A DNA stretch of 48,622 nt from Candidatus Woesebacteria bacterium (GCA_963749595.1 CAVVNJ010000001.1:67376-115997); one strand, 5' to 3'; counted from the stretch's first letter, positions 2,679-20,732 are shown. The notes: generated by a model not told the origin, from the sequence alone. Program-made: numbers and translations.

Positions 2679-2706
2679 TTCACATTTGACTAGTTGTGAG
2701 TATAAT
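2679..2706 (+). promoter_or_regulatory. Candidate sigma70 promoter of rpoD
   Basis: TTCACA (2679-2684), 16-nt spacer, TATAAT (2701-2706); GGAGA Shine-Dalgarno at 2746-2750 before ATG 2755. Confidence 0.55.
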
Positions 2707-2754
2707 TATACGGATCGTCGAATACAAAAATTACGCAATTATCCTGGAGATCTC

Positions 2755-4734: not shown

Positions 4735-5041
<307 letters not shown>

Positions 5042-5044
<3 letters not shown>

Positions 5045-6049
5045 AGCGACTTGGGACTCTAGCTCACTGGTATCAACATAGGTTCCGCCGCCACAACTTT
5101 TGCAGAAATATAAAGAGTATTCTTTATCTGAGTTTTGGTGCTTCTCTCCCCAAAAACGCGAACCGCAATCGCTGCAAAATAGGAAACCGCGTAGAAGAAA
5201 GTTGTGCTTGCGACTGCGCGATCCACCTTGGTTGTGGGCCAAAATAACCCTCTGCACCTGTGCAAATAGATCTTGAGAAATTAGCGGTTTGTGTTTACCG
5301 GCATATTCAACACTTTTCCAACGAAAGCGACCGACGTAGAAAGGATTACCCAGCGTCCGCTCGATCAAGCTCTGATGTATCTTGCCACCAGTTGGGGATT
5401 TAATCCCTTTTTCATTAAGAAAATCTGCCAGATCTGCCATCGTGTAACGTCCAGAGGCATACATTTTGAATATCTCTCGTACTAGGCTGCCAATTTCCGG
5501 CTGAACGAAAATTATCCGTCGGTCCAGAGTAGAGAAGGGCTCAGGATTATCGCCATTACGATATCCTAGCGGGGGAGTTCCGCCGGGAAACCAGCCGATC
5601 TGAGCCTTTTGCTCCATAACTTTACTAGTTTTACGTCCGGTAATTTGCGATTGAAAAGCGTTGGTCGCTGCTAACAAAGTATCAACAAGATTTCCCTCTG
5701 GGCTATCGTCAATAATCGGCTGACTGACGGAAATTACTTGCGTACCATTTTTGCGCAGAATCGCTTTGATTTGCAGGTGATCGATCGTATTCCTAGCCAG
5801 GCGGTCGGTATCTTGAACCAGCACAGCGTCAATTTTCGGCTCTTTTGCCTGGACTTTGACCAATAGATCTTGTAAAGCGGGGCGGTTCATATTGGTAGCT
5901 GATTTGCCCTCATCGACAAAGGTTGAAACAATCTCAATACCATTATCCTGGGCGTACTTTTGGCAGATCCGCAATTGCGATTCGATACTCTGGCCTTCCT
6001 TGGCCTGTTCCTCCGTCGATACCCGCGCATAGATCAAGCCCGCCCTCAC
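5042..6049 (-). pseudogene. Large serine recombinase A, C-terminally truncated after the Zn ribbon (335 aa)
   Basis: IYARVSTEEQ catalytic Ser motif, DTDRLARN, recombinase domain (GNPFYVGRF), Zn ribbon CSDC...CKSC, then an abrupt stop. The TAG is the reverse complement of tRNA bases CTA 5042-5044. GGAGGT RBS before the GTG start. Confidence 0.85.
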
Positions 6050-6252
6050 TCTGCACCTCCTAGCCCGTGTCTGAGCGCGTCCAAGACTTGCTCGCGAGAA
6101 TATTGACGGTCCCCACGTGTACCAATAGGGGTAGCTTTGAATATACCGGCCCTATCCCAGCGTCGAAGGGTGGTCGTGGTAACCCCCAAAAGCCTCGCTA
6201 CTTGGCCAATACGCAACTTCTCTGGCATGATAGTTGTCTTTTTTCCTGGCAT
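6046..6252 (-). CDS. MerR-type / excisionase-like HTH DNA-binding protein
   Basis: LRIGQVARLLGVTTTTLRRWDRAG...GDRQYS; stop overlaps the recombinase GTG start (GTGA). Confidence 0.8.
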   Translation of the reverse strand: MPGKKTTIMPEKLRIGQVARLLGVTTTTLRRWDRAGIFKATPIGTRGDRQYSREQVLDALRHGLGGAE

Positions 6253-7109: not shown

Positions 7110-7568
7110 ATGAATTCTATTTCTGAAGAGTCAGTAAAGAATTATAGAAAGTTTTTGGATCCTCAAAGTAATGTTGGACGAAATTTCCATTTCGAAATAT
7201 TAGTATTAGAAATTTTTCTTACCACACGTGCGTTTGAGATAGCCATAACTGATAACCGAGATGAACTATTAGACAAGATACACAGCATTATCTATCATCA
7301 GGCATGTAAAACTCCCGAAGAAATCGACACTTTTATCGAATTACTTAATGAAAGATATATACAATACCGAGAAACTCTTGACAAGGCATTTGAGGTGTCC
7401 GATCGAGAGGGTTTTGCTCTGTTATCCCTTGGAAATAGATTCGCCGGAAATATTGTCGGAGAGGATAAAGCACGCGGTGGATTATCCAGCTTTGTCGCTG
7501 CTAGATCCGGCCAACACCTTAAACTTTATCTTGATCTTCTTAATAGGAAAGACCAGATTCCAGGGTAA
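7110..7568 (+). CDS. Hypothetical protein
   Basis: 152-aa ORF filling the gap between neighbours; no motif recognised. Confidence 0.55.
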   Translation: MNSISEESVKNYRKFLDPQSNVGRNFHFEILVLEIFLTTRAFEIAITDNRDELLDKIHSIIYHQACKTPEEIDTFIELLNERYIQYRETLDKAFEVSDREGFALLSLGNRFAGNIVGEDKARGGLSSFVAARSGQHLKLYLDLLNRKDQIPG

Positions 7569-7619
7569 ACGCGCTACTCATGAAGTAGTCCGTCAGCCAT
7601 TGTATAATTCGAGTACTAA

Positions 7620-7635
7620 CCTCCCGGGGGAGCCA
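7620..7635 (+). other. Displaced tRNA-Asn 3' end (att junction)
   Basis: CCTCCCGGGGGAGCCA: CGGGGGA pairs with the tRNA 5' strand TCCCCTG (one G.U), followed by discriminator G and CCA. Differs from the expected T-stem at position 64 (C instead of A). Confidence 0.85.
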
Positions 7636-7639
7636 GATG

Positions 7640-7667
7640 GGACGCAGAGGCAACAAAGCGTCCTTTT
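7640..7667 (+). terminator. Candidate intrinsic terminator right after the tRNA 3' fragment
   Basis: GGACGC (7640-7645) / GCGTCC (7658-7663) stem followed by TTTT. Confidence 0.5.
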
Positions 7668-9361
7668 GTGTTGAACTGTCGGGCTTTTTTGTAAGTTCGA
7701 ATTTTCCATTTTCTAAGTCATCGATTTTTTCCACTTTCGGACCATTTGTTTCTGTTACTGCCTCGGAGAGGATTTTAAAGGTCTTTGAGTAGGTGTAGCT
7801 GAGCTTTCCCTCGTCTACTGTTAATGACCCGAAGACAAACCTTATAAGTGCTCGTTGTTCGTCCACCATGTCCTTGGCTTTGGCGGCTAGATAAATTTCT
7901 TTGGCTCTCTGGGAGAGTTCATAAATGCTGACACCAAGATTCAAGAAGCCGGTGCTGGCGTTGGAGTGTTTCTTGATTGACTCGGTTACTTCATCTTTTT
8001 CGTCTGAATACTGCTTAAATTTTCGGCTATAAAACTCTGGAGTGATCTTTTCATCGAGCTTATCATCGTACAATTTGTCCATTCGCTTCTGAATCGCCTC
8101 GTAGCGGGTGTGAAGCTCGCCGACAGTGTCGTTGTGGTATTGAAGTTCGTCCTGGTGGCTTTCCTTGAGTGCCTTCTTGAGCCAGTCGGTAATCCGGCTG
8201 TTTTTGATTCTCAGGTTCTCAAAACCGCTGATTAGTTGGTCCTCCACCTCGTCTTCTTTGACCCAGGTTGTCTGGGGACATTCGTGATAATGGTTACAGT
8301 GGCCGTAAATGTATTGGGCTTTGGCAATTTCGAAAGTAATTGAATTGTGGCAACTGGCGCATTTAATCAGACCTCTGAAAGAGGAAGTTGTGCTTACGGT
8401 ACTTGGGAGTGGTCCTACTGGTGAGCATATTCTGGATTTTATTGAATAGTTCAACGCTGATGAGCGGTTCTTGTTTGCCGTCGCAGACTTCTTTGTTCCA
8501 CCTAATTTTACCGATATAAAAGGGATCGCGCAGCAGGGAATGGATCCGACTGTGTGGCAGTCTGTGTCCTAGTTGGGATCTCATGCCTTCATCGTACATT
8601 TTCTTGACCAGCCTCTTGGTTGAATAATTGCCAGTGGCATAGAGTTCAAACATTTTCCTCACTAACGGGGCGGTGTCCTCATTGACGACGTGGATTTTGT
8701 GGCCGGTTTCGCCAATCGTTTTATAGCCATTGGGTGGTTTGGTAGGGATCCAGCCTTGGGCGATCTTCTCTTTCTGGCCTTTCTTGACGTTCTCGGATAA
8801 AAGTCGGACGTAATACTCGGCTGTGGCTACTTTCACCCGCCACATAAACCATTCGTGGGAGCGAGAGGTGTTGTGGAGGATACAGCCTTCCTTGGCCAGG
8901 TGGACCTGATGGGCTTCGTTCTCGGTAATCCAAAGGTCAATCATGGGGACATCGGCGAAGTTGCGGGTTAGGCGGTCCGTGGTTTCGACAATAATGGTGG
9001 GGATATCGTGCTTGCGGACGTAGGCTACCATCTCAATAAAGACTTTTCTCTGGGTTTTACCGGCGGCTGATTCGGAAATGGCAAAGACCTTGGCTACTTC
9101 CAGTCCTTGTTTCTCGGCATAATCGCGGAGGAACTTCTCTTGGGCTGGTAATGAATAGCCGGTGTCTTCTTGTTCTTTACTGCTTACTCGGCAGAAAATG
9201 GCAGTTTTCATAGGTTTTGATCTGGCAACACAACATAAAGGAATAACCCAGGAACATCAAGCCATTTGTCCTGTACTCGTTTGTTGTGGACTATAAGCGA
9301 GTGGGCAATAAATGAGAGGGGTTGGATGACTAGGCTCATTTCAAGGTAAAAAGGTCCCAAA

Positions 9362-9893
9362 TCCACACAAGTTTCACCCAAGAGTTGCCCAACCTTATAG
9401 CCTTCAAACTGACGAAACCTTAACGAAGTGTTGACGCAATTTTCTGTACCGATTTCATCCGTGATTTTGTCCTGATGTTATTCAGGCTAAAACCCTCATT
9501 TTCTGGGTAATCATTGGGTAACTGTTGGGAAACCTTTTTAAGGCTAAATCGCTTGAATTCTGGTGTAGGGTTGGTGTAGCTCCGGTGTAGCCTTTGCTGG
9601 TCGATTTCTGGAGAAGTATTGGAGAAGAGTTGGAGAAGTCTTTGGACGGAATTCTGGCATATCTTTGGCATACCCTTGGCATATACTGTTCTGCCAAGTT
9701 TTGCCACTTTTGCCAAGTCTACCCTGCCAAAATCCATCCAACTTTCATCCAAGTTCTGTCCAACCTTATTAGCCTTAAATGCTGACCAACTTCTGACCAA
9801 GTATTGACCAATTCCCATCCACACTTCATCCACCTTTTGTCCCACCCTTATAAGGCTTTTTCCTAGCCAAGTTTTAGCCAATTTCCGGCCAAC
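9362..9893. repeat. Array of about ten short triplet repeats with 11-bp period (TGG/CCA cores) in two orientations
   Basis: Examples: TGGTGTAG-type at 9561/9572/9583; TGGAGAAG 9609/9620/9631; TGGCATA 9655/9666/9677; TGACCAA 9783/9794/9805; GCCAA 9866/9877/9888. Confidence 0.85.
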
Positions 9894-9914
9894 CTTGTTT
9901 TTCATAGTTTGCAT
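9420..9914 (-). CDS. Hypothetical ORF spanning the repeat array (may be non-coding)
   Basis: 164-aa ORF. Its G-x-x-L-x-x-x-W pattern is simply the 11-bp DNA repeat read in three successive frames. Confidence 0.3.
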   Translation of the reverse strand: MQTMKNKVGRKLAKTWLGKSLIRVGQKVDEVWMGIGQYLVRSWSAFKANKVGQNLDESWMDFGRVDLAKVAKLGRTVYAKGMPKICQNSVQRLLQLFSNTSPEIDQQRLHRSYTNPTPEFKRFSLKKVSQQLPNDYPENEGFSLNNIRTKSRMKSVQKIASTLR

Positions 9915-10041
9915 TTCGTTTTGTTAATTATTTTTCGTTAAAAACTCCTTCTAGTTAGTTTGTCGTCCTCTCGTTTCTCGCCGACGTTATGTGACTTTAG
10001 GAATTTAGCCTTGATTTCCTTTAAATCTTCTCGTTTGTTGT

Positions 10042-10440
10042 TCACGACGAGCGAGTTGTTGCCTCGTGGATGGCAAAAATTGTGACGATTTGGGGGTTAA
10101 GGGTGTAGAGGTTATTGGCAAAGACACTGGTGCCTTTTTTGTTCTTTTGCTTTTTTTTGCGGATTTCGATTAAAGGTTCGCCATTATGTCTGGCTTTGGC
10201 AAGATTAGCTGATTCTTCTGCTGACACTGGCAATACTATTAAGGCCCAAGATTTGTTTGAGCTTGCTCAGGGAGGGGTAGCATTCGCCTTTGTCGTTGAT
10301 AAATACCGCCAGGGCGGTGAAGGTGTGCCATTGTTCAGCAGTTAACATCAGGTAAGAAGCCCACCATGAAAGATGGGGTTTCGCCAGAATTGCAGATACA
10401 AATTATCCTTTGGTTTTTCTTGTTTCATTGACATATTCAT
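10042..10440 (-). pseudogene. HTH (HTH_36 / phage replication protein-like) gene with two frameshifts
   Basis: Manual translation: MNMSMKQEKPKDNLYLQFWRNPIFHGGLLT | MLTAEQWHTFTALAVFINDKGECYPSLSKLKQILGLNSIASVSRRI | ANLAKARHNGEPLIEIRK...NNLYTLN. Breaks at about 10350 and 10208. Confidence 0.6.
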
Positions 10441-10459
10441 TTATTGTTTTGGTCTTGGG

Positions 10460-10615
10460 CTATGAGCTACCGCTCTTGGCCTCGATCTTCATGGCCGTTT
10501 CTGCAAAGCCAATAAGGACCAGGGCAATGTCCAAGACTTCCTCAAGCTTTAAATCAACGTTGTAGTCCTCTTTGAGAATCTGTCTGAGCTCGAGTAGTAA
10601 CTTTTGGCTCACCAT
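10460..10615 (-). CDS. Small 51-aa hypothetical protein of the integrative-element core
   Basis: MVSQKLLLELRQILKEDYNVDLKLEEVLDIALVLIGFAETAMKIEAKSGSS; below the ORF-track size cutoff; overlaps the upstream gene's stop. Confidence 0.6.
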   Translation of the reverse strand: MVSQKLLLELRQILKEDYNVDLKLEEVLDIALVLIGFAETAMKIEAKSGSS

Positions 10616-10867
10616 AGGCTTCTTTCGGCATAAAGCCGCGATTTAATGTCACGTAACTGGTTAAAGAATGTCTGGGGTGAGATTTTGAGTTCATTGCGAA
10701 AGTAGCCTTCAACAAGGTCTTCTAGTTCTGGGGACCGCAAGAAAACAAAGACGGCTTTGCGTGGATTGGATCGGTCAATATCCTGAATGGGAAACTGGAG
10801 GGAAATGGTAGTGGCTAGGGCTAAGTCACTGGTTACGTAAGTATCGGAAGTATGTTTGCTGATTCAT
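10609..10867 (-). pseudogene. DUF5659-like protein; ATG at 10867 is out of frame by one base
   Basis: Manual translation: YVTSDLALATTISLQFPIQDIDRSNPRKAVFVFLRSPELEDLVEGYFRNELKISPQTFFNQLRDIKSRLY. In-frame TGA immediately upstream of ISKH. Confidence 0.6.
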
Positions 10868-10995
10868 AGTAATTTATTTGAGAACTACGATCAGTTTAGG
10901 GAAGGTGCGCTGTCCATCTCAATAAACTTTGTGGTTGTTTATGTTTACTTTTGGAGACAAGGAGTAATAATTGTCTGGTAAGAAGTAGCCAATTT

Positions 10996-11004
10996 TGGTA
11001 AACT
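10996..11004 (+). promoter_or_regulatory. Extended -10 promoter candidate for the hydrolase-Ldh-AKR-YecM operon
   Basis: TG-G-TAAACT upstream of the first gene. Confidence 0.45.
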
Positions 11005-11046
11005 ATGACTAAGAATCGACGTTTTTAAATGGACATCAAATTAAAT

Positions 11047-11586
11047 ATGAACAAAAAATCAAAAGCATTGTTTCTTCAAAGTTGGTATTCAAAGGTTACC
11101 GATAATTGGTATCCATGGTTAAAGAATGAACTTGAGAAAAAAGGTTACGCCACTTATTTTCCCGATATCCCAGAAATGCGTAAAGATGTTCCTGATATGG
11201 GTAAAATACTCGAATATATTGAATCCCTGAAAGTAATTGACAAAGATACGATTATTATCGGTCACAGCCTTGGTAATTTGTTAGCAATGAGATTAGCTGA
11301 AAAATTTGAGTATAAGCAGATGATTTTAGTTTCTGCATGGGATTACGATGATTTGTGTGAAGGACACGTATTGTTTTGGAAAACAAAGATAAATCACACA
11401 AGAATTAAAGAGCATGTCAAAAACATTACCGTAATTCACTCTGACAATGACCCGTACTACACTCAGATTTCCGCTGAAGACACAAGTAAAAGGCTAAATG
11501 CAAAATTAATTATAATTAAGGGTGGTGGGCATTTCGGAACAAAAGAAGGGACGAAGGAAATGCCCGAGATATTAAAACTACTTTAA
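11047..11586 (+). CDS. RBBP9/YdeN-family alpha/beta serine hydrolase
   Basis: NWYPWLKNEL, GHSLG nucleophile, HSDNDPY, GGHF. Start could be 11029. Confidence 0.85.
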   Translation: MNKKSKALFLQSWYSKVTDNWYPWLKNELEKKGYATYFPDIPEMRKDVPDMGKILEYIESLKVIDKDTIIIGHSLGNLLAMRLAEKFEYKQMILVSAWDYDDLCEGHVLFWKTKINHTRIKEHVKNITVIHSDNDPYYTQISAEDTSKRLNAKLIIIKGGGHFGTKEGTKEMPEILKLL

Positions 11587-11594
11587 ATATATCT

Positions 11595-12584
11595 ATGAAA
11601 ATCAAAGTTTCGGAAGCCATCCAAATATCTCAGAAGTTTCTTGAAAAGCTTGGTTTATCACCTGAGGAATCAACTTTAATTACTGAGAATGTTGTTGACG
11701 CTGAACTAGCGGGTAGAAAAACTCACGGTTTTGTCCGTTTAATATCTTTCAAAAAACAGTCAGACGAGAAACGATTAAATATTGACGAACTAAAGCTCGA
11801 TATTACTGATGAATCTCCAGTTCATATTCATGTAGACGGTCACGGCAAACTCGGGTACGGTATAATTTATAAATCACTTGATCTGGCATTTGAGAAAATA
11901 AAGACCTCAAGAATGGTGTCTGTTGGCATTAAGGACTTGGGAGTGACCGGTTACATCGGAGGTTATGCAAGAAAGGCTACAGAGAAAGACTTAATTTTCA
12001 TTGGTTTTAATAACTCACCAGGTGGTTTAGTTCCTTATGGTTCAAAGAAGGAATTGTGGGGTACTAACCCGATGACCATCGGCGTTCCTACAGAAGACAC
12101 TCCAGTTATTTTAGATATGGCTTCAACCCTGACGACTTGGGGAGAGCTTATGGTGGCCAAGAACGAAGGAAGAGAAATTAAGCCTGGTGTTGCTATTGAT
12201 GCTGAAGGTAAACCGACAACTGATCCTGTTAAAGCAATGTCTGGAGGGTTATTACCTTTTGCTGGTTATAAAGGATCCGGGCTTGGTCTTATTGTTGAAC
12301 TACTCGCCGGTGCATTGACTGGAGCCAGAGTTGGTTATGCTGTTCCTGGTGGTTGGGGTTCGTTCTACATTCTCATTGATCCAACACTTTTCCGACCACT
12401 TACCGATTTTAAGAAAGACATAAAAGCTGCAATAACAGAATTAAAAAATGCTCCTAAGATGGATGGTGTTGACGAGATTTATTTTCCGGGCGAGCAATCT
12501 CATAAACTAAGACAAGAACAACTTTCAGAAGAAATGGTTGAAATTAGCGATAAGATTTTAGAACAAGTAAGGAGTCAATTATGA
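11595..12584 (+). CDS. Ldh_2-family (malate/L-lactate/sulfolactate dehydrogenase-like) oxidoreductase
   Basis: AELAGRKTHGFVRL, GTNPMTIG.P, ILDMAS, LLPFAGYKGSGLGLIVELLAG, IYFPGE. Confidence 0.88.
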   Translation: MKIKVSEAIQISQKFLEKLGLSPEESTLITENVVDAELAGRKTHGFVRLISFKKQSDEKRLNIDELKLDITDESPVHIHVDGHGKLGYGIIYKSLDLAFEKIKTSRMVSVGIKDLGVTGYIGGYARKATEKDLIFIGFNNSPGGLVPYGSKKELWGTNPMTIGVPTEDTPVILDMASTLTTWGELMVAKNEGREIKPGVAIDAEGKPTTDPVKAMSGGLLPFAGYKGSGLGLIVELLAGALTGARVGYAVPGGWGSFYILIDPTLFRPLTDFKKDIKAAITELKNAPKMDGVDEIYFPGEQSHKLRQEQLSEEMVEISDKILEQVRSQL

Positions 12585-13507
12585 TAACCAAAAATGATTT
12601 ATTTCCAATCGGTATAGGAACTTGGGGTGTTGGTGGCTTTGCAGAAAAAGACCAAACTCTAAATAAGAGCAAACAAGTTGATGCTATCGCCTACATGTTT
12701 CAAAAAGGCATGAATTATGTCGAAGCTAACCTCTGGTATTCTCAAGGTTACTCTGCCGAGATTCTTGCTGAAGCTTTCAAAAAATCAGGTAAAAAGCGCG
12801 ATGAGATATTTATCGTCCAAGCAGTTTATCTGAAGGACAATAAACTCCAAGATACTGAAGCGGAAATTGATCGTTTGTTGAAGCTGTTTGGAACTGATCA
12901 CATCGACACTCTGCAGTATACCCAAAGTGCTTTCCTGGATTATGAATTTGATGAGGTTTGTGGCATGGCCGATAAGGTTATAACTGCTGGTAAATCTCGA
13001 TATACAAGTATTACCAATGAAAACTTAGAGCTACTGAAGAAGTATCATCAAAGATTTGGTGACAAATTATTCTCCCATGAAGTGTGTTTCAACTTTGAAG
13101 TTCGTGCTAATGAGGCAGAAGGAACCATTAAGTACGCCCAGGATAATGGAATCGTGACTGCCATTTATCAGCCTTTAAGAAGGAACCGAACCGCAAACAG
13201 GAATTGGCCAATTTTAGTCGAGCTTTCCAAAAAGTACGGAATAACTCAAAACCAAGTGATCCTCAGTTGGATTATATCTAAAGGCTTATTACCTCTTACC
13301 AAGTCTGAAAATAAAGCACATATTGATGAGCATCTGGCAGCAATTGGACACAAGTTGGATCCAAATGATATCCAAATGTTAAACGACTTTGTCCCACCTG
13401 GATACAAACCGTTACCAATCGATTGGGATAAAACAGGACAAGGGTTCCGCATTGACCAGGTTAGTAACGTCTTTGATGATGAATACGATAAGCAAATTAA
13501 AGGTTAA
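12581..13507 (+). CDS. Aldo/keto reductase-fold protein with non-canonical catalytic residues
   Basis: IGIGTWG, GTDHID, GKSR, YQPL, TQNQVILSW, PKS-like TKSENKAHIDE; ATGA overlap with the upstream gene. Confidence 0.8.
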   Translation: MITKNDLFPIGIGTWGVGGFAEKDQTLNKSKQVDAIAYMFQKGMNYVEANLWYSQGYSAEILAEAFKKSGKKRDEIFIVQAVYLKDNKLQDTEAEIDRLLKLFGTDHIDTLQYTQSAFLDYEFDEVCGMADKVITAGKSRYTSITNENLELLKKYHQRFGDKLFSHEVCFNFEVRANEAEGTIKYAQDNGIVTAIYQPLRRNRTANRNWPILVELSKKYGITQNQVILSWIISKGLLPLTKSENKAHIDEHLAAIGHKLDPNDIQMLNDFVPPGYKPLPIDWDKTGQGFRIDQVSNVFDDEYDKQIKG

Positions 13508-13511
13508 TAAT

Positions 13512-13997
13512 ATGGTTTTAGATTCTTACGATAAATTTATTACTACTATCCTGAATAAAATTCAGTCTTTTGAGATTGATGTCGAAAAGTTGGATATGGA
13601 TCATATTGGCTACCAAGCATCATCTGACGAAGATTACGATAACCTGAAGAAAGAGTTTGATGGTTTAGGAAAGCTTGTGTCTGAAGAGATTGTTGGCGGA
13701 CGAAGAGTTGGTATTTATGAATTAAGCCAACCATTAAAGTTTAATCAATACACCAATGATGCGATTGAACTAGTAGCTCCTAAACAAGGGCAACAGTGTC
13801 CTTCTGCCCTTGAGCACGTTGAATTTGTGTTAACTGAAAGTTTTGAGTCCTTCATGGCTAAATATCCGAATGTACCTTGGGATACTACTGCGATAAGCCA
13901 ACCCGGATTCCCAATGATAAAACTTAAACTTGGTGATTATATCCAAGCAAAATTTCACCTACAGCCTGTATTGGATATCGTGGCGAACAAAACTTAA
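13512..13997 (+). CDS. YecM-like VOC-family protein
   Basis: MDHIGYQAS, EEIVGGRRVGIYEL..PL, IELVAPK, LEHVEFV, AKFH; start set at ATG 13512. Confidence 0.8.
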   Translation: MVLDSYDKFITTILNKIQSFEIDVEKLDMDHIGYQASSDEDYDNLKKEFDGLGKLVSEEIVGGRRVGIYELSQPLKFNQYTNDAIELVAPKQGQQCPSALEHVEFVLTESFESFMAKYPNVPWDTTAISQPGFPMIKLKLGDYIQAKFHLQPVLDIVANKT

Positions 13998-14221
13998 AAG
14001 GGAAGCAGTTCGGAAGAGTCTACTTTCAACGCCTTGGCGATTTTGTAGAGAGTCCTGATGGTTGGGTTTCTCTCGCCTCGTTCTACCATGCCCACATATG
14101 TCCTGTGCAATGACAATCTTGCCGCCAATTCTTCCTGGCTAATACCTTGAGATTTACGGACCTTTTGCATCTTCTGACCGAATTTTTCTAGAACGAATTT
14201 GTGAGTTATTGCTTTTCCCAT
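13994..14221 (-). CDS. XRE / C-protein-like HTH transcriptional regulator
   Basis: GISQEELAARLSLHRTYVGMVERGERNPTIRTLYKIAKAL. Confidence 0.92.
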   Translation of the reverse strand: MGKAITHKFVLEKFGQKMQKVRKSQGISQEELAARLSLHRTYVGMVERGERNPTIRTLYKIAKALKVDSSELLPF

Positions 14222-14378
14222 GTGTTCAAATCGTAGAGACTCCCTGTATTCTTTTCGACAGACTCCTTGTCTCTTTTGTGCTAAACTTCCTCTAGAAAGC
14301 CTATTGATTTGACTTTAGCTCTTGAAGGAAGTTAACATCTCGACACGTTATCAGTTAGCTCTGTAGGAGGATAAAAAT

Positions 14379-15245
14379 ATGACAATGAAAATGACTCAAA
14401 ACAAACCACTGGTTATTGCCTTCGCTCTCGTGGTGTTACTTGGCTCTGCCTTCTGGCTTATTCGTCCCAGGATTCAAGCAGTAAAGGTTCAACAGGCTCA
14501 GGACCAGAAGCTCCAACAAATAAAAGAACTCACTCAATCTGCCGATACTGATCCTAAATATCGGGAACATAATTCCCAGGCCAGCCGTGAGATGTCTGAT
14601 AAGCTCTGTTCTTTGACTGCCCGCTCTCCGGAAGAGAGGGAGAAAGCAGTGGCAGCTGTCCGTGATTTCTTGGAAATGCCGACTATTGCGGTGAAATATG
14701 AATGCAACGACGCCTTCTATAACCTGGAAGAGGACCGACTTATTCCTGCCAAGAGTGAAACTTACTCGGTTGACTCAACCTATTTCGTTGTTAATTCTGT
14801 AACAAACCATATCATGCAAGTAGACGAGACTCCTGGGACTTGGGGATATAAGGCTGATGGTTCTCGTTGGTTTAGTGATCAAAAGCAATACGACTACAGT
14901 GGCAAATATAGCCAAGCAGAGATTGAACAGTTGGCTCGTAACTTTATCACCAAGCATTCAGTGGCTTTAGGAAATATCGATCTCTCTAAATTCACACTGG
15001 AGACCGGCAAGAAGGATGGTGGAAACGGTAGGGTAAATTATTTCCTCATTTGGAAGGGAGAAGCCAGAACTGTCCAATTAGATCCACCAACCGAAACTTG
15101 TAGTGAGGACCTGGACAAGAACGCTCCTGGCTTATATCGCAACGGCAATGGTGTTCCTTGTATCAAGGTCTACGAATCCAAAGAACAGCCTAGCCTGAGC
15201 TGTTGCCTTTACCAATGGTGGCCAACTCATCAACTTCTCCAATGA
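14379..15245 (+). CDS. Secreted or membrane-anchored hypothetical protein; probable frameshift near the C-terminus
   Basis: AGGAGG RBS and N-terminal hydrophobic segment. After about 15199 the +1 frame reads AVAFTNGGQLINFSNELEGPLARARMR to a stop at 15282, which looks like the natural tail. Confidence 0.65.
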   Translation: MTMKMTQNKPLVIAFALVVLLGSAFWLIRPRIQAVKVQQAQDQKLQQIKELTQSADTDPKYREHNSQASREMSDKLCSLTARSPEEREKAVAAVRDFLEMPTIAVKYECNDAFYNLEEDRLIPAKSETYSVDSTYFVVNSVTNHIMQVDETPGTWGYKADGSRWFSDQKQYDYSGKYSQAEIEQLARNFITKHSVALGNIDLSKFTLETGKKDGGNGRVNYFLIWKGEARTVQLDPPTETCSEDLDKNAPGLYRNGNGVPCIKVYESKEQPSLSCCLYQWWPTHQLLQ

Positions 15246-15601: not shown

Positions 15602-16708
15602 ATGAAGACAAACAAAATGGCACAAAAAAAGGACATACAAGATATTCTGTACCAGTTAATCAAATTAACTGCTGAAAATAAATCCGAAGATTTACAGATG
15701 TATCTCAAACGGTATCAGAAAATCTTGGGGGAAAGTTACCCTGAGTTGATAGAGAAACTTCAAACATTCAAGAAGAGTAGTTCTGGCAACTTCAGAAATA
15801 CAAGGATGGCTAACATTCCAGTAGACTTAGATACTAGGCTTGAGCTGGTTCGGATGTTTCAAAAGCCATCTGTAGACTTTGAGCCAATTTGGGAAGACTC
15901 CATTCAAAAGATCCTTAATCAGGTACTTATTGAGAGAAGCCAAAAAAGAAAACTAAGAGAACATGGATTACAAGCAACTAAGTCAATTATATTTACCGGT
16001 AAACCTGGGGTCGGTAAGTCGTTGGCAGCAAAATGGGTTGCTTCAAAATTAAACATGCCCCTTTTGGTACTGGATCTGTCTGCTGTCATGAGTAGTTTTT
16101 TGGGACGCACTGGATCAAATATTAGAAATGTACTTGATTACGCAAAAGGAATGGAGTGCGTTTTGCTTTTAGACGAGATTGACGCAATTGCCAAAAAAAG
16201 AGATGACAATGCTGATGTTGGAGAGCTTAAAAGATTAGTTACAGTTATCCTTCAAGAAATAGATGAGTGGCCCGAACATAGCTTATTGATTGCTGCAACA
16301 AATCACGCCTCATTGTTGGATCCAGCAGTATGGAGAAGATTTGATTTAGAGATCGAATTCCCAATGCCACAAACAGAACAAGTTATTAAGGCTGTAGATC
16401 TGTATCTAGGAAAAGAAAAAATTGAATCTAAAGAGGTTAAAAATTGTTTGATATCACTTTTAAACTCTTTGTCTTTCAGCGACATTGAAAGAGCGGTGTT
16501 ATCGATTAGAAGACAAGCTGTTATAAAAAAGATTGATATAGACAACGCGGTTGTCGAATATTTTGCTCAAGGTATTGATAAACTAGACAAAGAATCGAAG
16601 TTAAAAGTTGCTAAATTAATGGTTAGCCTAGGTAGTTCTCAGCGAAGGGCAAGCGAAATTGTCGGCATCAGTAGAACTACACTAAGCAAGAAAATGAAGG
16701 GAGAATAA
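15602..16708 (+). CDS. ietA: AAA+ ATPase IetA
   Basis: Walker A GKPGVGKS, Walker B LLLDEIDAI, DVGELKRLV, AATNH..LLDPAVWRRFD, C-terminal HTH; directly upstream of an S8 protease. Confidence 0.85.
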   Translation: MKTNKMAQKKDIQDILYQLIKLTAENKSEDLQMYLKRYQKILGESYPELIEKLQTFKKSSSGNFRNTRMANIPVDLDTRLELVRMFQKPSVDFEPIWEDSIQKILNQVLIERSQKRKLREHGLQATKSIIFTGKPGVGKSLAAKWVASKLNMPLLVLDLSAVMSSFLGRTGSNIRNVLDYAKGMECVLLLDEIDAIAKKRDDNADVGELKRLVTVILQEIDEWPEHSLLIAATNHASLLDPAVWRRFDLEIEFPMPQTEQVIKAVDLYLGKEKIESKEVKNCLISLLNSLSFSDIERAVLSIRRQAVIKKIDIDNAVVEYFAQGIDKLDKESKLKVAKLMVSLGSSQRRASEIVGISRTTLSKKMKGE

Positions 16709-16710
16709 AT

Positions 16711-18926
16711 ATGTCAAAAAACTTTCTTCTCGGCTTTGGTGAACGGTTAACAGAAAGAATGGATCCGCCAAAGACAGCTCCGGATAAAGTGTTGCCTTAC
16801 TCTTTTGAAGAGTCAGTAAAAAGGTTAGGAAGTCAGATTGACCAGACTTTAGAATCTGTTCGCTCCCTGCCTGATTTGGCTTGCCCTCAAAATCAAACTG
16901 TTGTTTCTTTTGTCCTACATCCAGAATTCACTGCAAAATCGTATTATCCAGAGTCTTTGTTCCGCTCCTGGAACTTAGAACAGGTTGGTAGCCGAATGAC
17001 AAAAATCAAACCTGAAAAGTGGACCAAGAAAAAGAGAAACAGCCGAGGTTGTTACTACAGAAATTTTTGTATCAGGTGAGAAAACAAAACTAGAAGCACT
17101 ACCTGGTCTTTTAAGCAAAACTCTTTCGACCTCTGTTGAAGGAGCTGAGCTGTCAAAGATTGAGATGATTAAGCCTTTGAGTGTGTCAGATAAGCTCATG
17201 CCTATACTTACAAAAAATGACAGATTGATGTTTGAGGCCGTACTGCATGCATCGGCTGACGAATCCTATCTTGTAGATGGGTTTAAGAAATACTTGGACT
17301 CACTCAAAGACGGTTCAATTATCAGCGATCTCATTTATTCAAAAGGTTTATGTTTTCTCTCCATCGAAGCACAAAAGGCAAAGGCTCACGACATTGCCGA
17401 ATTTTCTTTTTTAAGAGTGCTTAGGGAGATGCCAAAACTTCGTGGTTTTGAGCCCGCCTTACGGTCAACAGGTATGAATTTTGCAGTTAGTTTACCAGAT
17501 GTAAAACCAGTCGATCCTAACCTAAAAGTAGCGATTTTTGATGGAGGTTTTCCAGATAATAGTCCATTATCGAAATGGATTGATAAGAAAGAAATTGGGA
17601 AACTGGATAAACCAATGGCCGAAGGTTTAAATCATGGACATTGGGTATCATCTGCTTTTTTATTCGGCCCATTACAAGATGGAGTCCAACCACCTCAACC
17701 TTACGCATATGCAGACCTTTATCGTGTTTTTGACACCAACGACAATGGTGATGCAAACTTAATTAAAGTCCTTAAAAGAATAAGGGATATTCTTACTTCA
17801 ACTAACTACAATTTTGTTAATTTAAGCTGTGGACCAGATTTGCCTGTTGAAGATACTGAAGTTCATGCATGGACCTCAGTTCTTGATGAAATATTCTCGA
17901 ATGGATCAATTTTGGCAACATTGGCTGCTGGAAATAAAGGTCATTTAGATAGAGCTTCGGGGAATGCCCGTATTCAACCACCATCCGACTGTGTTAATGG
18001 ACTATGTGTGGGTGCCGCTGACAGTCAAGGAGATGCATGGCAAAGAGCAAACTATAGTTGCGTTGGTCCTGGTAGACTCCCTGGGTACATAAAACCTGAT
18101 TTACTTGGGTTTGGTGGTTCAACAAAAGAGTTTTTCTGGGTTGTCGACAACAATAATCCTGGTTTTTCTGTTCCTGTTCAAGGAACCAGTTTTGCCGCGC
18201 CGTTTGTATTAAGGACTGCGGCTGGGATTCGTTCCATATTTGGAAGCAACTTAAGCCCACTGGCAATAAAAACATTGCTCATTCATTCTAGTGAGAAGGA
18301 AAATCATGACTTGTTAGAAGTTGGTTGGGGTAAGTTAGGTTCAGATATTGATCTGATAACCTCATGCGAAGATTCCTGCATTAAGGTTGTTTATCAGGGT
18401 AAGCTAAATCCTGGAGAATGGCTGAAGGTTCCAGTTCCATTACCAAACACTCAAATAAAGGGTAAGGTCTTGGTTAAAGCCACGATGTGCTATGCCACAC
18501 CCACAGACCCACAGGACTCGGCAAACTACACCCAGAGTGGTTTAGAGATAGTTTTTAGACCAAACGAGGACAAGAAGAAGGATCCTCATCAGGAATACCC
18601 TGATTCTAAATCGTTTTTCTTCTTCCTCAAGACTTTACGAAAATTTGGGAACTGATGAAAAGAGATTTGACTCCCACAGGTGGGAGTCAACGATGTCTTC
18701 ATCCAGGTCTATGCTTGGGAGGAGCCTTAAGAATCCTGAATTTAATGTTCACTATATTGCCCGAGATGGTGGTAATAAAACAAAGGACGCTCAAGAAATC
18801 CCTTACGCTCTAGTGGTTGAGGTAAGTGCTCCACGAGAGGTTAATTTATATAACCAGGTATTTAGCCGGTTTAGAACGGTCTTAGAGATTCTCAAACCGA
18901 CCATTGAGATCCAGGTACAAACATAA
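16711..18926 (+). pseudogene. ietS: S8 serine peptidase IetS, split into three ORFs by two +1 frameshifts (about 17030 and 18615)
   Basis: N-terminal FLLGFGERLT; triad AIFDGG / NHGHWVSS / QGTSFAAP and AAGN oxyanion motif in 17165-18655; C-terminal IPYALVVEV..P...LYNQV. The skipped frames give natural continuations ETAEVVTTEIFVSG and SSSRLYENLGTDE. Confidence 0.85.
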
Positions 18927-18931
18927 CCAAT

Positions 18932-20172: not shown

Positions 20173-20732
20173 CTACGCTTGCAGAAAACGGTGGATTTCC
20201 TTCGCTGTGTACTCTGGGTATTCGAGCTCTGTGGTCCAGTCAGTTGTCCGAAATTGTGACCATTTCTCGAGCCAAGCTTGACGATCAGAGAAATCCAGAA
20301 GCATATCAAAGGGTTTTTGTGCTTCGTATAGCACCTTTTTACCTTCTATTCGTAGGTTCGATAGTACAAGCTTGATAAGTTGCCGTCTTTCTTCGACTTC
20401 TGAACTCCTAAACAGCTCATACGCTCGTTGGGTAAGGTCTACCAGATATGTAGCGGTTACAAAGTAGCTGTCTTCAGCTTCTTTGAGTAAGGCTAAGCGG
20501 GTGTCCACATCGGCTTCTTGTTCCTGGAACGATTGAAAGAATTTGTCATATTGATCGTCAGTAATTCGTCAGTAATACGCCCCTTCAGTTTGTCCAAATA
20601 AAGATTGTCTTTCATTGTGGTGAGTGCTTTTTGTTTCTTGGTAAGTTCTTCGTATTGTTGGTTGTGAAAATCCATCTTGGCCTCATGGGTTTGAGTCAAT
20701 CCTTCGAGAATTTGTTTCAGTACGTCATCTGG
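20173..20732 (-). pseudogene. Large serine recombinase C, C-terminal remnant, frameshifted by an 11-bp tandem duplication
   Basis: PDDVLKQILEGL..., LYLDKLKGRIT, ERRQLIKLVLSNL, QKPFDML, WLEKWSQFRT. TCGTCAGTAAT duplicated at 20555-20576. Confidence 0.8.

What the first reader, a model, noticed from the sequence alone, without database searches (positions are those of the whole stretch)
9211..10867. Hidden core module: DUF5659, 51-aa protein, HTH rep-like gene, phased repeats, serine recombinase
Two of these genes are absent from the ORF track and the HTH gene shows there only as its last fragment; they were recovered by manual translation. They are co-directional and tightly packed, with DUF5659 overlapping the 51-aa gene. 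There are no capsid, conjugation or relaxase genes in the window. Inference: the backbone of a minimal integrative replicon or satellite-like element of Patescibacteria that shuttles defence and metabolic cargo into tRNA sites. I recall similar gene sets in CPR genomes but know of no functional description.
Basis: partly seen in the sequence, partly recalled or inferred. Interest (0 to 1): 0.62.

Follow-up and report, generated by a model that had tools for sequence, protein, structure and literature searches.

The report
Broken control operon of a tRNA island
The stretch is the conserved but here inactivated "engine" operon of a small mobile island that a serine integrase inserts into tRNA genes of ultra-small (Patescibacteria) bacteria. 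The operon has two unknown small proteins, a DNA-binding protein, an odd translated repeat array and the integrase, and the island carries defence and metabolic genes as cargo.

Summary
On the minus strand of 7540-10867 lie, in order:
- a DUF5659 gene
- an overlapping 51-aa gene
- a winged-helix (HTH_36-like) gene
- a ~560-bp array of 11-bp-phased word triplets
- a large serine recombinase

Only the 51-aa gene is intact. The others are broken by single-base insertions.

The same five-part operon, intact, recurs widely. In 70 of 76 Patescibacteria genome loci, DUF5659 is followed by a same-strand serine recombinase. In 39 of those, the recombinase 3' end overlaps a tRNA gene. A search seeded with the HTH protein found the same order in 57 metagenome loci.

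Cargo differs between copies. Here it is the IetAS defence pair plus Ldh_2, an aldo/keto reductase, YecM and a hydrolase.

So "backbone of an integrative cargo island at tRNA sites" is supported. "Replicon" and "satellite" are not:
- no Rep or packaging genes
- no circular contigs
- almost no hits in viral or plasmid collections

New points:
- The array sits inside an ORF whose frame is always kept open and ends ATGA on the integrase start. It nevertheless evolves under DNA-level constraint (dN/dS 0.74, depressed dS, no period-3 signal).
- The array always accompanies the HTH gene and lies just upstream of a conserved integrase promoter.
- The window's ten frameshifts are all insertions. This is unexplained, and reads could not be checked.

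The parts
10609..10867 (-). DUF5659 gene, 85 aa in relatives. Here a pseudogene: one extra base at about 10849-10851 shifts the frame after codon 5.
   Evidence: Pfam PF18903 E=3.9e-10. Homologs are 93-97% identical, all 84-85 aa and starting MNQQ. Insertion mapped. dN/dS among intact relatives is 0.05.
10460..10615 (-). 51-aa helical protein ('s51'), intact. Its start overlaps the DUF5659 stop by 7 nt.
   Evidence: ORF. The identical protein is encoded in 45 contig blocks of public assemblies, always directly after DUF5659. dN/dS is 0.03. No Pfam, PHROG, NCBIfam or PDB match.
9938..10440 (-). Winged-helix DNA-binding protein gene (HTH_36-like, 161-166 aa in relatives). Here a pseudogene with five 1-nt insertions (about 10352, 10343, 10208, 10054, 10029).
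   Evidence: Three-frame reading. Insertions mapped against L100/L101/L002/L014. HTH_36 E=4e-5, below the cut-off. phrog_12720 at 1.3e-19. AlphaFold model is wHTH plus a long C-terminal helix, pLDDT 65. Foldseek gives MarR/HpaR, RepE and RctB winged helices at E>=1.6e-3.
9208..9914 (-). 'Array ORF': an open reading frame running through the repeat array and ending ATGA on the recombinase start. Here it is broken (9420..9914 plus 9208..9381) by 1-nt insertions at about 9477 and 9464.
   Evidence: In 14 of 15 distinct intact relatives one ORF spans the whole 318-800-nt gap and stops at +3 of the recombinase ATG. The other five frames have 2-19 stops. All 10 pairwise indels are multiples of 3. 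dN/dS is 0.74 and dS is 0.10-0.39, against 0.37-1.7 in the flanking DUF5659 and recombinase genes. Period-3 power is 0.0-0.2, against 20-219 in neighbouring genes.
9340..9900 (.). Array of about 12 blocks. Each block is three copies of a 7-8-nt word at 11-bp spacing. Words differ between blocks but mostly share a TGG/CCA core: TTGG-type in the first part, CCAA-type in the second. An AGCCTTA/TAAGGCT linker motif recurs.
   Evidence: Lag-11 z = 10.4. Whole blocks are gained or lost between relatives, and the three copies of a block change together. There are 91 exact triplets in 69 distinct array regions and 0 in 52 recombinase-gene controls; 75 of the 91 contain TGG or CCA. The signal is present in 19 of 19 loci with the HTH gene and in 7 of about 50 without it.
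9232..9260 (-). Promoter-like site for the recombinase (P_int): TTGATG, 17 nt, TATGTT, about 20 nt before the ATG at 9211.
   Evidence: TTGAYA-N15-19-TATRTT is present in 47 of 99 distinct recombinase upstream regions, including module variants that lack the array. It is below the threshold of the generic scan.
7540..9211 (-). Large serine recombinase B (535-557 aa in relatives). Here it is split by one inserted base at about 8376-8381. Its 3' end runs across the attachment site.
   Evidence: Pfam Resolvase, Recombinase and Zn_ribbon_recom. 72-91% DNA identity to relatives, ending at 7620-7630 in most relatives whose contigs reach that point. dN/dS is 0.03.
10868..10965 (-). Conserved control region of the operon: promoter-like TTGAGA-18-TAAACT (10922..10893), preceded by the inverted repeat GTAAAC-N15-GTTTAT.
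   Evidence: Promoter scan. The stretch is almost invariant across relatives, including the L004 group, whose genes are only about 67% identical.
7620..7635 (+). Right junction of element B: the 3' acceptor end of the tRNA-Asn (..GGGGAGCCA) displaced from the gene at 4735-5044.
   Evidence: Sequence read. Homology to relatives stops here. Group I intron in the tRNA 5' part.
20180..20276 (.). Left end of element B. It is homologous to the left end of the L002 element and to the 3' tail of the recombinase gene in L014.
   Evidence: 97.5% identity to L002 2034-2113 and 84% to L014 9080-9174.
14379..15245 (+). Conserved backbone partner on the other strand: a 296-300-aa protein with an N-terminal membrane helix. 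Here its C-terminal end is altered by one inserted base at about 15200.
   Evidence: 70-90% DNA identity to L002, L003, L014, L016, L017, L019, L022 and L026. HMM hits in 19 loci. Insertion mapped. No Pfam hit near the cut-off (one chance-level JSRP match, E=0.0027, 18 bits against 25), and no PHROG or PADLOC family.
15602..18655 (+). Cargo: the IetA (AAA+ ATPase) and IetS (subtilase) defence pair.
   Evidence: PADLOC IetA 2.6e-84 and IetS 4.8e-38. Pfam AAA and Peptidase_S8.
11029..13997 (+). Cargo: serine hydrolase, Ldh_2 dehydrogenase, aldo/keto reductase and YecM. All ORFs are intact.
   Evidence: Pfam. The Ldh_2 gene has no indel relative to L014.

Best explanation
**What it is**
Window 7540-10965 (minus strand) is the backbone operon of 'element B'. 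Element B is a ~12.6-kb genomic island (7630-20274) inserted by a large serine recombinase into the tRNA-Asn gene next to rpoD of a Microgenomates-type Patescibacterium.

The operon order is: conserved promoter/operator, DUF5659 (85 aa), 51-aa helical protein, 161-166-aa winged-helix protein, translated array of 11-bp-phased word triplets, conserved P_int, integrase. The integrase 3' end spans the attachment site.

**Shown by comparison**
- The gene order is conserved.
- The operon is linked to tRNA 3' ends.
- The four proteins are under strong purifying selection.
- The array is under DNA-level constraint while its reading frame is kept open.
- Cargo varies between copies.

**Inferred mechanism**
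- The integrase does the attP x attB reaction.
- The winged-helix protein binds the TGG/CCA-core words. Three identical words sit on one face of the helix per block, directly upstream of P_int. Binding sets integrase transcription (a regulatory nucleoprotein array rather than an origin).
- The array stays translatable because ribosomes of the upstream operon must run up to the ATGA junction.
- DUF5659 and the 51-aa protein are the small regulators or directionality factors of the switch.

**This copy**
Ten single-base insertions leave only the 51-aa gene intact, while the cargo ORFs tested are open and the one compared with a relative (Ldh_2) is indel-free. As assembled, the island is immobilised and its cargo domesticated.
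For: **Synteny**
- Intact operons in L002-L013.
- 70 of 76 DUF5659-seeded genome loci have a downstream same-strand recombinase, 39 of them with a tRNA at its 3' end.
- All HTH-seeded metagenome loci with room show DUF5659 + s51 upstream and the recombinase downstream.
- The exact 51-aa protein is found in 45 contig blocks with intact neighbours.

**Boundaries**
- Homology to most relatives whose contigs reach that point ends at 7620-7630, and the left end at 20180-20276 matches L002 and L014.
- tRNA-Asn with intron at 4735-5044; rpoD at 2686-3855, as in L011-L013.

**Selection**
- dN/dS is 0.05, 0.03, 0.13 and 0.03 for DUF5659, s51, HTH and the recombinase, against 0.74 with depressed dS for the array ORF.
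- Period-3 power is 0.0-0.2 in the array, against 20-219 in the genes.
- All indels are multiples of 3, and the ORF is ATGA-coupled in 14 of 15 relatives.

**HTH-array link**
- The array signal is present in 19 of 19 loci with the HTH gene, against 7 of about 50 without.
- The model has a winged-helix fold.

**Promoters and cargo**
- Promoter-like sites.
- Cargo.

**Inactivation**
-.
Against: - No experiment or read-level data exist for any step.
- Binding of the HTH protein to the array is inferred only from co-occurrence and position.
- DUF5659 relatives (57% identity) also occur in two IMG/VR contigs without any serine recombinase. One of these is a real phage with an SU10-type capsid gene. 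DUF5659 is therefore not an integrase-specific factor.
- The DUF5659 model (pLDDT 86.7) has no solved structural relative (best Foldseek E = 0.45). The 51-aa protein matches nothing. Their roles are guesses.
- Module variants lacking HTH and array exist (L007-L010, L029-L031 and others), so that pair is not essential to the family.
- The insertion-only frameshift pattern (10 insertions, 0 deletions, half in non-repeat contexts) is unlike other decayed copies, which are deletion-biased. The 'dead copy' reading could be an assembly artefact.
Confidence: 0.72

Rival explanations
1. Mini-replicon. The winged-helix protein is a replication initiator and the phased repeats are its iteron origin, so the excised circle replicates autonomously.
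For: - The HTH gene and the adjacent repeat array always travel together.
- Distant homologs (30-40% identity) sit at the head of replication modules in Paenibacillus phage Tripp and in a B. thuringiensis plasmid, between ParM and the DnaB/primase genes.
- Foldseek lists RepE, Rep-DUE and RctB winged helices among the best matches.
- L014 shows an attP-type junction, so excised or tandem forms exist.
Against: - No Rep, primase or helicase family was found in Pfam, NCBIfam or PHROGs.
- The protein has one winged helix, not two. All the Foldseek matches have E > 1e-3 and are generic wHTH folds.
- The repeats are 7-8-nt words at 11-bp spacing that differ from block to block, not identical 17-22-bp iterons. 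They lie inside a translated ORF and directly upstream of a promoter.
- None of 11 whole contigs of 5-13.6 kb has overlapping ends, and the L014 contig ends do not overlap.
- Only 3 IMG/VR loci were found through DUF5659. HTH-protein tblastn found only distant (under 41% identity) relatives in PLSDB plasmids and INPHARED phages.
- Sister modules work without either part.
Confidence: 0.15
2. Phage satellite. The island senses a helper phage through phage-like early proteins (DUF5659), excises, and is packaged by the helper.
For: - DUF5659 relatives occur in CPR phage contigs.
- The island carries defence cargo, is 10-13 kb, and relatives have an HTH_17/AlpA-like gene.
Against: - No terminase, capsid, portal or capsid-remodelling gene was found in the window island or in the annotated relatives.
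- The module is essentially absent from IMG/VR.
- No helper is known.
Confidence: 0.08
3. The 'hidden' state is an assembly or polishing artefact. In the real genome element B has an intact operon, and the ten extra bases were introduced where reads of related elements cross-map.
For: - All ten frame-breaking differences from the nearest relatives are 1-nt insertions and none is a deletion. About half are in non-repeat contexts, and all lie in the family-conserved backbone genes.
- Other decayed copies show the usual deletion bias: L022 has 13 deletions of 1-5 nt plus one of 160 nt against 1 insertion, and L015 has 1 deletion.
- Many variants of this family coexist in environmental samples.
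Against: - Host genes in the same window are intact, including a 3224-aa ORF.
- The Ldh_2 cargo gene, shared with L014 at 87% identity, has no indel.
- The neighbouring elements A and C and the tRNA itself are truncated, which fits an old, decaying insertion site.
Confidence: 0.3
4. The array ORF encodes a functional 11-residue-repeat protein, and the DNA periodicity is a by-product.
For: - The frame is open in 14 of 15 relatives.
- All indels are multiples of 3.
- The ORF is ATGA-coupled to the integrase.
Against: - dN/dS is 0.74, with 'synonymous' sites 3-5 times more conserved than in the flanking DUF5659 and recombinase genes.
- Variability shows no period-3 signal.
- Substitutions fall in the 4-nt spacers regardless of codon position, and the three copies of a word change together.
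- The same words occur in rotated reading frames in different blocks.
- No family match was found.
Confidence: 0.12

Closest known systems
Large-serine-recombinase integrative elements and prophages (phiC31, Bxb1, A118/LI, TP901-1, SPbeta SprA/SprB; SCCmec Ccr; Anabaena XisF)
   Same: - Resolvase + Recombinase + Zn-ribbon integrase at one end of the element.
- Best NCBIfam and PHROG matches are XisF, CcrB and phage integrase (phrog_95, 5e-78).
- Small accessory genes sit next to int, as with TP901-1 orf7 and SPbeta sprB (from my own knowledge).
   Different: - Targets the 3' end of tRNA genes.
- The attachment site lies inside the integrase gene's own 3' end.
- The accessory genes (DUF5659, 51-aa) belong to no known RDF family.
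- A translated 11-bp-phased array lies upstream of int.
Tycheposons of Prochlorococcus (bioRxiv 10.1101/2020.12.28.424599)
   Same: Small (10-20 kb) cargo-carrying elements of streamlined genomes. They integrate at tRNA genes, stack into islands, have short hallmark modules plus variable cargo, and mostly lack packaging genes.
   Different: - 910 of 937 of those elements use a tyrosine recombinase, and many carry polymerase, primase or helicase genes.
- Here the integrase is a serine recombinase and no replication enzyme is present.
Iteron-type plasmid replicons (RepE/pi/RepA) and RepA_N plasmids with an origin inside the rep gene
   Same: A winged-helix protein gene next to direct repeats. 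RepA_N replicons are a precedent for repeats embedded in coding sequence (from my own knowledge).
   Different: - A single winged helix and no Rep family hit.
- Words of 7-8 nt at 11-bp spacing, in triplets that differ from block to block.
- No evidence of an autonomous circle.
parC centromere of plasmid R1 (two sets of five 11-bp iterons bound by ParR; from my own knowledge)
   Same: Many short sites at one-helical-turn spacing, which would assemble a protein along one face of the DNA around a promoter.
   Different: - parC iterons all share one sequence and work with the ParM actin-like ATPase.
- No ParM or ParA is present here.
- The binding protein here would be wHTH, not ribbon-helix-helix.
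Pfam DUF5659 (PF18903)
   Same: The first gene is a member: above the cut-off, and a confident model whose only structural relatives are other DUF5659 phage proteins.
   Different: The family has no described function, and no paper in the searchable library mentions it. Its near-universal position at the head of a serine-integrase operon in Patescibacteria has not been described in any paper I could find.

Membership tests
Large serine recombinase integrative element | Integrase with Resolvase catalytic domain, Recombinase domain and zinc-ribbon domain | tested here: met
   Pfam PF00239 6e-20 and PF07508 1e-17 on 8363..9211; PF13408 1.2e-5 on 7540..8454. The gene is split by one inserted base.
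Large serine recombinase integrative element | Site-specific insertion with a definable junction at a conserved target | tested here: met
   Homology to relatives ends at 7620-7630, at the displaced tRNA-Asn 3' end. In 39 of 70 relatives a tRNA overlaps the recombinase 3' end. The flank is rpoD and tRNA-Asn, as in L011-L013.
Large serine recombinase integrative element | A recombination directionality factor that switches the integrase to excision | not testable with these tools
   DUF5659 and the 51-aa protein are candidates by position only. No known RDF family matched.
Pfam DUF5659 (PF18903) | Score above the curated cut-off over the whole domain | tested here: met
   39.9 bits against 23.6, profile positions 2-74 of 75. 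Single copy in the genome.
Pfam HTH_36 (PF13730) | Score above the curated cut-off | tested here: inconclusive
   23.7 bits against 25 for the read-through window protein, and only 'faint' precomputed hits in relatives. A distant module variant (L067) passes at 40.4 bits. The model has a winged-helix fold.
Iteron-type replicon (Rep + iterons) | Initiator of a recognised Rep family (two winged helices, RepA_N, Rep_3 and the like) | tested here: not met
   No Rep family was found in Pfam, NCBIfam or PHROGs. The model has one wHTH plus a helix. Profile search of the PDB gave nothing below E = 0.28.
Iteron-type replicon (Rep + iterons) | Several near-identical 17-22-bp iterons | tested here: not met
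   The words are 7-8 nt at 11-bp spacing, in triplets that differ between blocks.
Iteron-type replicon (Rep + iterons) | Existence as an autonomous circular molecule | tested here: inconclusive
   No terminal overlap in 11 whole contigs or in L014. L014 does show an attP-type junction.
Phage satellite (PICI, P4-like, cfPICI, PLE) | Packaging or capsid-redirecting genes (terS, capsid, Sid/Psu-like) | tested here: not met
   None was found among the Pfam hits of the island ORFs or of the annotated relatives.
Tycheposon | Lineage-specific tyrosine recombinase and shared replication hallmark genes | tested here: not met
   The integrase is a serine recombinase and there are no replication genes. 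Definition taken.
IetAS defence system (cargo) | Adjacent IetA AAA+ ATPase and IetS subtilase | tested here: met
   PADLOC IetA 2.6e-84 (15602..16708) and IetS 4.8e-38 (17165..18655). The IetS match covers profile positions 165-634 of 749.
Type II partition centromere (parC/ParR) | Arrays of identical iterons together with a ParM-type ATPase | tested here: not met
   The 11-bp spacing is shared, but the words differ and no ParM or ParA gene is present in the island.

The most novel reading that the evidence does not exclude
The winged-helix gene plus the triplet array may be a new kind of cis-regulatory device.
- It would be a 0.3-0.8-kb field of 'three identical words per three helical turns', drawn from a small TGG/CCA-core vocabulary.
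- It must be both bound as DNA and translated through, and it gates a serine integrase from its own promoter.
- DUF5659 and the 51-aa protein would be the long-sought small directionality or regulatory factors of a phylum-wide, undescribed family of tRNA-targeting serine-integrase cargo islands.
Probability: 0.3. Interest if true: 0.75.

Novelty: new variant of a known kind. Interest (0 to 1): 0.55.

Why it matters
- Patescibacteria have tiny genomes and few recognised routes of gene exchange. A compact island family that carries defence systems and metabolic genes into tRNA genes would be a main route of their genome plasticity.
- The backbone defined here gives a search key for such islands in fragmented MAGs: promoter/operator, DUF5659, a ~50-aa protein, DNA-binding genes, P_int, and an integrase spanning its own att site.
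- It gives the large DUF5659 family its first consistent genomic context. The family has 2155 clusters at 50% identity.
- The array is a rare, clear case of DNA under sequence constraint at all codon positions while its reading frame is still kept open.
- Compact serine integrases with natural, conserved tRNA targets, and their unknown accessory factors, are also of interest as genome-engineering tools.

Tried and rejected
- **Alternative code or quadruplet decoding for the broken frames.** Rejected. Neighbouring genes end on ordinary TGA/TAA stops with ATGA overlaps. The extra bases share no 4-letter word, and relatives simply lack them.
- **ARAGORN for the tRNA.** Nothing found. The tRNA was found through the Rfam group I intron and by reading the sequence.
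- **Direct repeats at the element ends.** The repeat finder and blastn-short found no long repeat. Ends were set by homology to relatives instead.
- **Function of DUF5659.** The PDB profile search gave nothing (best E = 3.9). Foldseek against the PDB gave nothing. BFVD gave only other uncharacterised DUF5659 proteins. tblastn of a relative (P0084) against 50,697 phage records found no match. PHROGs, NCBIfam and PADLOC gave nothing for P0017.
- **Function of the 51-aa protein.** PDB profile and Pfam searches gave only chance-level hits.
- **Middle genes of sister modules.** No Pfam families except HTH_36 in L067. My impression that the 117-aa protein is SpoVG-like was not confirmed.
- **Circular forms.** No terminal overlaps were found.
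- **Iteron-like repeats next to the distant HTH homologs** in phage Tripp and a Bacillus plasmid. Only weak two-copy repeats were found.
- **Literature.** No paper mentions DUF5659. None combines Patescibacteria, serine recombinase and integrative.

Full report
**1. What is in the window**

On the minus strand between 10867 and 7540 there are five co-directional, tightly packed units.

(a) DUF5659 gene
- ATG at 10867, stop at 10609-10611.
- Pfam PF18903 matches at E=3.9e-10 (39.9 bits against a cut-off of 23.6).
- The ATG is in another frame: MNQQTYFRYLRNQ*. The 89 homologs found (18 of them 93-97% identical) are 84-85 aa and begin MNQQ(T/I)(S/N)SDTY. One extra base near 10849-10851 therefore breaks the gene after codon 5.

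(b) 51-aa ORF, 10460..10615
- It is intact.
- Its start overlaps the DUF5659 stop by 7 nt.

(c) Gene at 9938..10440
- It reads only by hopping frames.
- Intact relatives encode a 161-166-aa protein.

(d) A ~560-bp array of 11-bp-phased repeats

(e) Large serine recombinase in two frames, 8363..9211 and 7540..8454

**2. The broken frames**

I aligned the window with its nearest intact relatives: L100/L101 at 90.7% identity, plus L002, L003, L014 and L017. The frame breaks are:
- one 1-nt insertion in DUF5659
- five in the HTH gene
- two in the array ORF
- one in the recombinase
- one in the conserved 288-aa gene at 15200

There is no 1-nt deletion. About half of the inserted bases are not duplications of a neighbouring base.

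The Ldh_2 cargo gene has no indel relative to L014. Host genes in the window are intact, including a 3224-aa ORF.

Other decayed family members show the usual deletion bias. L022 against L021 has 13 deletions of 1-5 nt plus one of 160 nt, and one insertion. L015 has one deletion.

The insertion-only pattern is therefore unusual. It is either an odd mutational history or an assembly or polishing artefact in a region where reads from sister elements cross-map.

Alternative codes or quadruplet decoding do not explain the breaks. The inserted bases share no context, and neighbouring genes use ordinary stops.

**3. Is the module conserved?**

DUF5659-seeded loci
- Neighbourhoods of DUF5659 homologs show intact operons: DUF5659 (82-85 aa), a 51-59-aa ORF, a 161-166-aa ORF, a 117-208-aa ORF, then a 535-557-aa serine recombinase. 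Host genes follow (rpoD/dnaG in L011-L013).
- A scan of one genome per species gave 77 loci, nearly all Patescibacteria MAGs.
- With my own HMMs and ARAGORN, 70 of the 76 loci with a DUF5659 ORF have a same-strand serine recombinase 133-3439 nt downstream (median 1367).
- Of the six without one, two have too little contig left and two are truncated remnants.
- In 39 of the 70 the recombinase 3' end overlaps an opposite-strand tRNA: Asn 24, Ser 5, Gln 4, Arg 2, Trp 2, Thr 1, Met 1.
- Others have intron-bearing tRNAs like this window's (L042, L048 and L052 match the intron region) or end at the junction.

HTH-seeded loci
- The reciprocal scan, seeded only with the HTH protein, gave 57 metagenome loci.
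- Every one with room upstream has DUF5659 and the small ORF. Every one with room downstream has the recombinase.

Abundance
- The window's exact 51-aa protein is encoded in 45 contig blocks from many samples, with intact neighbours.
- The DUF5659 subfamily has 2155 clusters at 50% identity.

**4. The element in this window**

- Homology to most relatives whose contigs reach that point stops at 7620-7630. There the plus strand reads ..GGGGAGCCA, the acceptor end missing from the tRNA-Asn at 4735-5044. That tRNA carries a group I intron (RF00028, 3.5e-18).
- rpoD lies at 2686-3855, the same context as L011-L013.
- The other end is at about 20274. Window 20197-20276 is 97.5% identical to the left end of the L002 element.
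- Element B is thus about 12.6 kb.
- Its cargo is a serine hydrolase, Ldh_2, an aldo/keto reductase and YecM, the IetA/IetS defence pair (PADLOC 2.6e-84 and 4.8e-38) and a DUF559-type nuclease.
- A second backbone gene lies on the other strand (14379..15245). It encodes a 296-300-aa protein with an N-terminal membrane helix and is found in 19 loci.
- Relatives often have an HTH_17 excisionase-like gene beside that partner. In the window the only homolog (6070-6228) belongs to element A.
- Cargo elsewhere includes type I RM with an AbiU2 HEPN domain, GmrSD, OLD-like ATPase, RhuM, MmeI-like enzymes, ZnuABC/Fur and BlaR-like genes.

**5. The proteins**

| Gene | Median dN/dS among six intact relatives |
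|---|---|
| DUF5659 | 0.05 |
| 51-aa ORF | 0.03 |
| HTH | 0.13 |
| Recombinase | 0.03 |

All four are real, constrained proteins.

- DUF5659: AlphaFold gives a confident beta-alpha-beta-beta-alpha-alpha model (pLDDT 86.7). It has no solved relative (best Foldseek E = 0.45). In BFVD it matches only other uncharacterised DUF5659 phage proteins.
- HTH protein: the model (pLDDT 65) is a winged helix followed by a long helix. Its best matches are MarR/HpaR, RbkR, TFIIE, RepE, RctB and RTP, all with E >= 1.6e-3. This is a generic wHTH fold.
- tblastn finds 30-40% identical 'DNA binding proteins' in Paenibacillus phages, a few genes before the replication genes. It also finds them in Bacillus plasmids, between ParM and the DnaB/primase genes. 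This is weak guilt by association for a replication-linked role.
- The 51-aa protein matches nothing.
- No paper in the library mentions DUF5659.

**6. The array**

Structure
- Lag-11 identity is 0.458, against 0.257 +/- 0.019 in shuffles (z = 10.4).
- Read in operon orientation, the array is about 12 blocks. Each block has three copies of a 7-8-nt word at 11-bp spacing with variable 3-4-nt spacers.
- The first blocks have a TTGG core (TTGGC, GGTGGA, TTGGTCA, TTGGA, TTGGCA). The next have its complement (TATGCCA, CTTCTCCA, CTACACC, TTACCCA). TTGG-type words then return.
- The linker motif AGCCTTA/TAAGGCT recurs.

Conservation
- The same architecture occurs at the same place in relatives. Whole blocks are gained or lost between copies.
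- The three copies of a block change together. For example, CTTCTCCA x3 corresponds to TTACTCCA x3 in L016, and TTCGTCA x3 to TTCGG x3.
- Across 69 distinct array regions there are 91 exact triplets, against none in 52 recombinase-gene controls. Of the 91, 75 contain TGG or CCA. A small vocabulary recurs in distant relatives: TTGGTCA, CTTCTCCA, TTACTCCA, GTTGGA, TATGCCA, TACACCA.

Reading frame
- The array is not intergenic. In 14 of 15 distinct intact relatives one ORF starts 24-32 nt after the HTH stop (or overlaps it). It spans the whole 318-800-nt region and stops at +3 of the recombinase ATG (ATGA).
- The other five frames hold 2-19 stops.
- All ten pairwise indels inside the ORF are multiples of three: 33, 36, 39, 42, 81, 93, 105, 198, 231.

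Mode of selection
- The ORF does not evolve like a protein. The period-3 power of site variability is 0.0-0.2, against 20-219 in the neighbouring genes. There are modest peaks at periods 11 and 33.
- dN/dS is 0.74.
- dS is only 0.10-0.39, against 0.37-1.7 in the flanking DUF5659 and recombinase genes.
- The same word triplet is read in rotated frames in different blocks.
- The sequence is therefore constrained as DNA (or RNA) at all codon positions, and in addition its frame is kept open.

Association and position
- The 11-bp signal is present in 19 of 19 genome loci with the HTH homolog. It is present in 7 of about 50 without it; those seven may hold diverged partners.
- The array ends about 60 nt upstream of a conserved promoter-like site, TTGAYA-N15-19-TATRTT, itself about 20 nt before the recombinase ATG.
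- That site occurs in 47 of 99 distinct upstream regions, including sister modules that have no array. In the window it is at 9260..9232.

**7. The operon's own control region**

- The ~95 bp upstream of DUF5659 are almost invariant, even in the L004 group, whose genes are only about 67% identical.
- The stretch contains TTGAGA-18-TAAACT (window 10922..10893) and an inverted repeat GTAAAC-N15-GTTTAT.

**8. Interpretation**

Shown
- This is the backbone operon of a widespread family of serine-integrase islands. The islands target tRNA 3' ends in Patescibacteria and carry variable defence and metabolic cargo.

Most likely mechanism (inferred)
- The wHTH protein coats the phased word triplets upstream of P_int and so controls integrase expression.
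- The array is kept translatable because upstream ribosomes must reach the ATGA junction, either for coupling or to avoid polarity.
- DUF5659 and the 51-aa protein are the regulators or directionality factors.

Caveats on DUF5659
- It is not integrase-specific. Relatives at 57% identity occur in two IMG/VR contigs without a recombinase. One of these has an SU10-type capsid gene and an amidase.
- This makes it more likely a regulator than an integrase-specific directionality factor (my inference).

Replicon and satellite readings
- The replicon reading is weak. There is no Rep family, the protein has a single winged helix, and the repeats are not iteron-like. No whole contig has overlapping ends, and sister modules lack the pair.
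- L014 (a 10.4-kb contig) does have the recombinase 3' tail joined to the homolog of window 20274-20180. This is an attP-type junction, so excised or tandem forms exist.
- The satellite reading lacks any packaging gene.

**9. Comparison and novelty**

- It works like phage-type serine-integrase elements and, ecologically, like tycheposons.
- It differs from both in the tRNA target of a serine enzyme, the accessory genes and the array.
- Earlier notes of this scan describe the same island family in more than 50 genomes and once mention the triplet mini-arrays. I treated those notes as leads and re-derived the points used here.
- I found no published description.
- I class it as a new variant of a known kind. 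As assembled, this particular copy is a dead one.

Noticed in passing
window 10851, 10352, 10343, 10208, 10054, 10029, 9477, 9464, 8381, 15200: All ten frame-breaking differences from the nearest relatives are single-base insertions and none is a deletion. About half are not duplications of a neighbouring base. They hit only the family-conserved backbone genes; the one cargo gene that could be compared with a relative (Ldh_2) has none. Decayed copies in other genomes are deletion-biased.
   Followed up: partly
window 9232-9260 (minus strand); relatives: A conserved promoter-like TTGAYA-N17-TATGTT(GTGTTGC) lies about 20 nt upstream of the recombinase ATG, inside the last codons of the upstream ORF. 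It is shared by module variants with quite different upstream genes.
   Followed up: partly
window 10868-10965 (minus strand): A nearly invariant ~95-bp control region lies upstream of DUF5659. It has TTGAGA-18-TAAACT and an inverted repeat GTAAAC-N15-GTTTAT, and is conserved far beyond the level of the adjacent genes.
   Followed up: partly
L014 9080-9174 (contig JAAXWV010000035.1, 10,404 bp, Roizmanbacteria MAG): The recombinase 3' tail (a 557-aa form) is encoded by sequence that in the window sits at the opposite end of element B (20274-20180). This is an attP-type junction of an excised or tandem copy. The contig ends do not overlap.
   Followed up: partly
window 16711-17165: The IetS match starts at profile position 165 of 749. 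A 122-aa ORF without any family lies just upstream in another frame, so IetS may itself be split or may have a separate N-terminal partner.
   Followed up: no
window 6070-6228 (minus strand): An HTH_17/excisionase-like ORF (32-40% identical to those of L002/L003) lies directly upstream of recombinase A (5042..6049). Element A therefore has a different, Xis-Int type of backbone without DUF5659.
   Followed up: partly
L035 7450-7600, L040 7240-7350: In sister modules without the HTH homolog, word triplets (GTTACACCGAG x3, CTATTCCAAG x3, ACGGCAA x3) sit in the 3' part of a 178-192-aa ORF that precedes the recombinase. The array can therefore be embedded in the tail of a different gene.
   Followed up: no
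L091 10001-13502 (IMGVR_UViG_3300038436_000160): A phage contig with an SU10-type major capsid protein and an amidase carries a DUF5659 gene 57% identical to the island type, about 1.2 kb upstream of the capsid gene. It has no serine recombinase, small ORF or HTH partner.
   Followed up: partly
L122 10971-12731 and 18734-20218; L138 1263-2945 and 10891-12504: Two serine recombinases of this family lie in tandem on one contig, the outer one ending in tRNA-Asn. Stacked elements like the window's three appear to be common.
   Followed up: no
L007-L010, L030, L035, L040, L059 (between DUF5659 and the recombinase): An alternative middle cassette replaces the HTH gene and array. It has an 83-aa paralog-like second small ORF, a conserved 116-118-aa protein (MTITINDITVKIKLL...) and a 178-217-aa protein. 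None has a Pfam family.
   Followed up: partly
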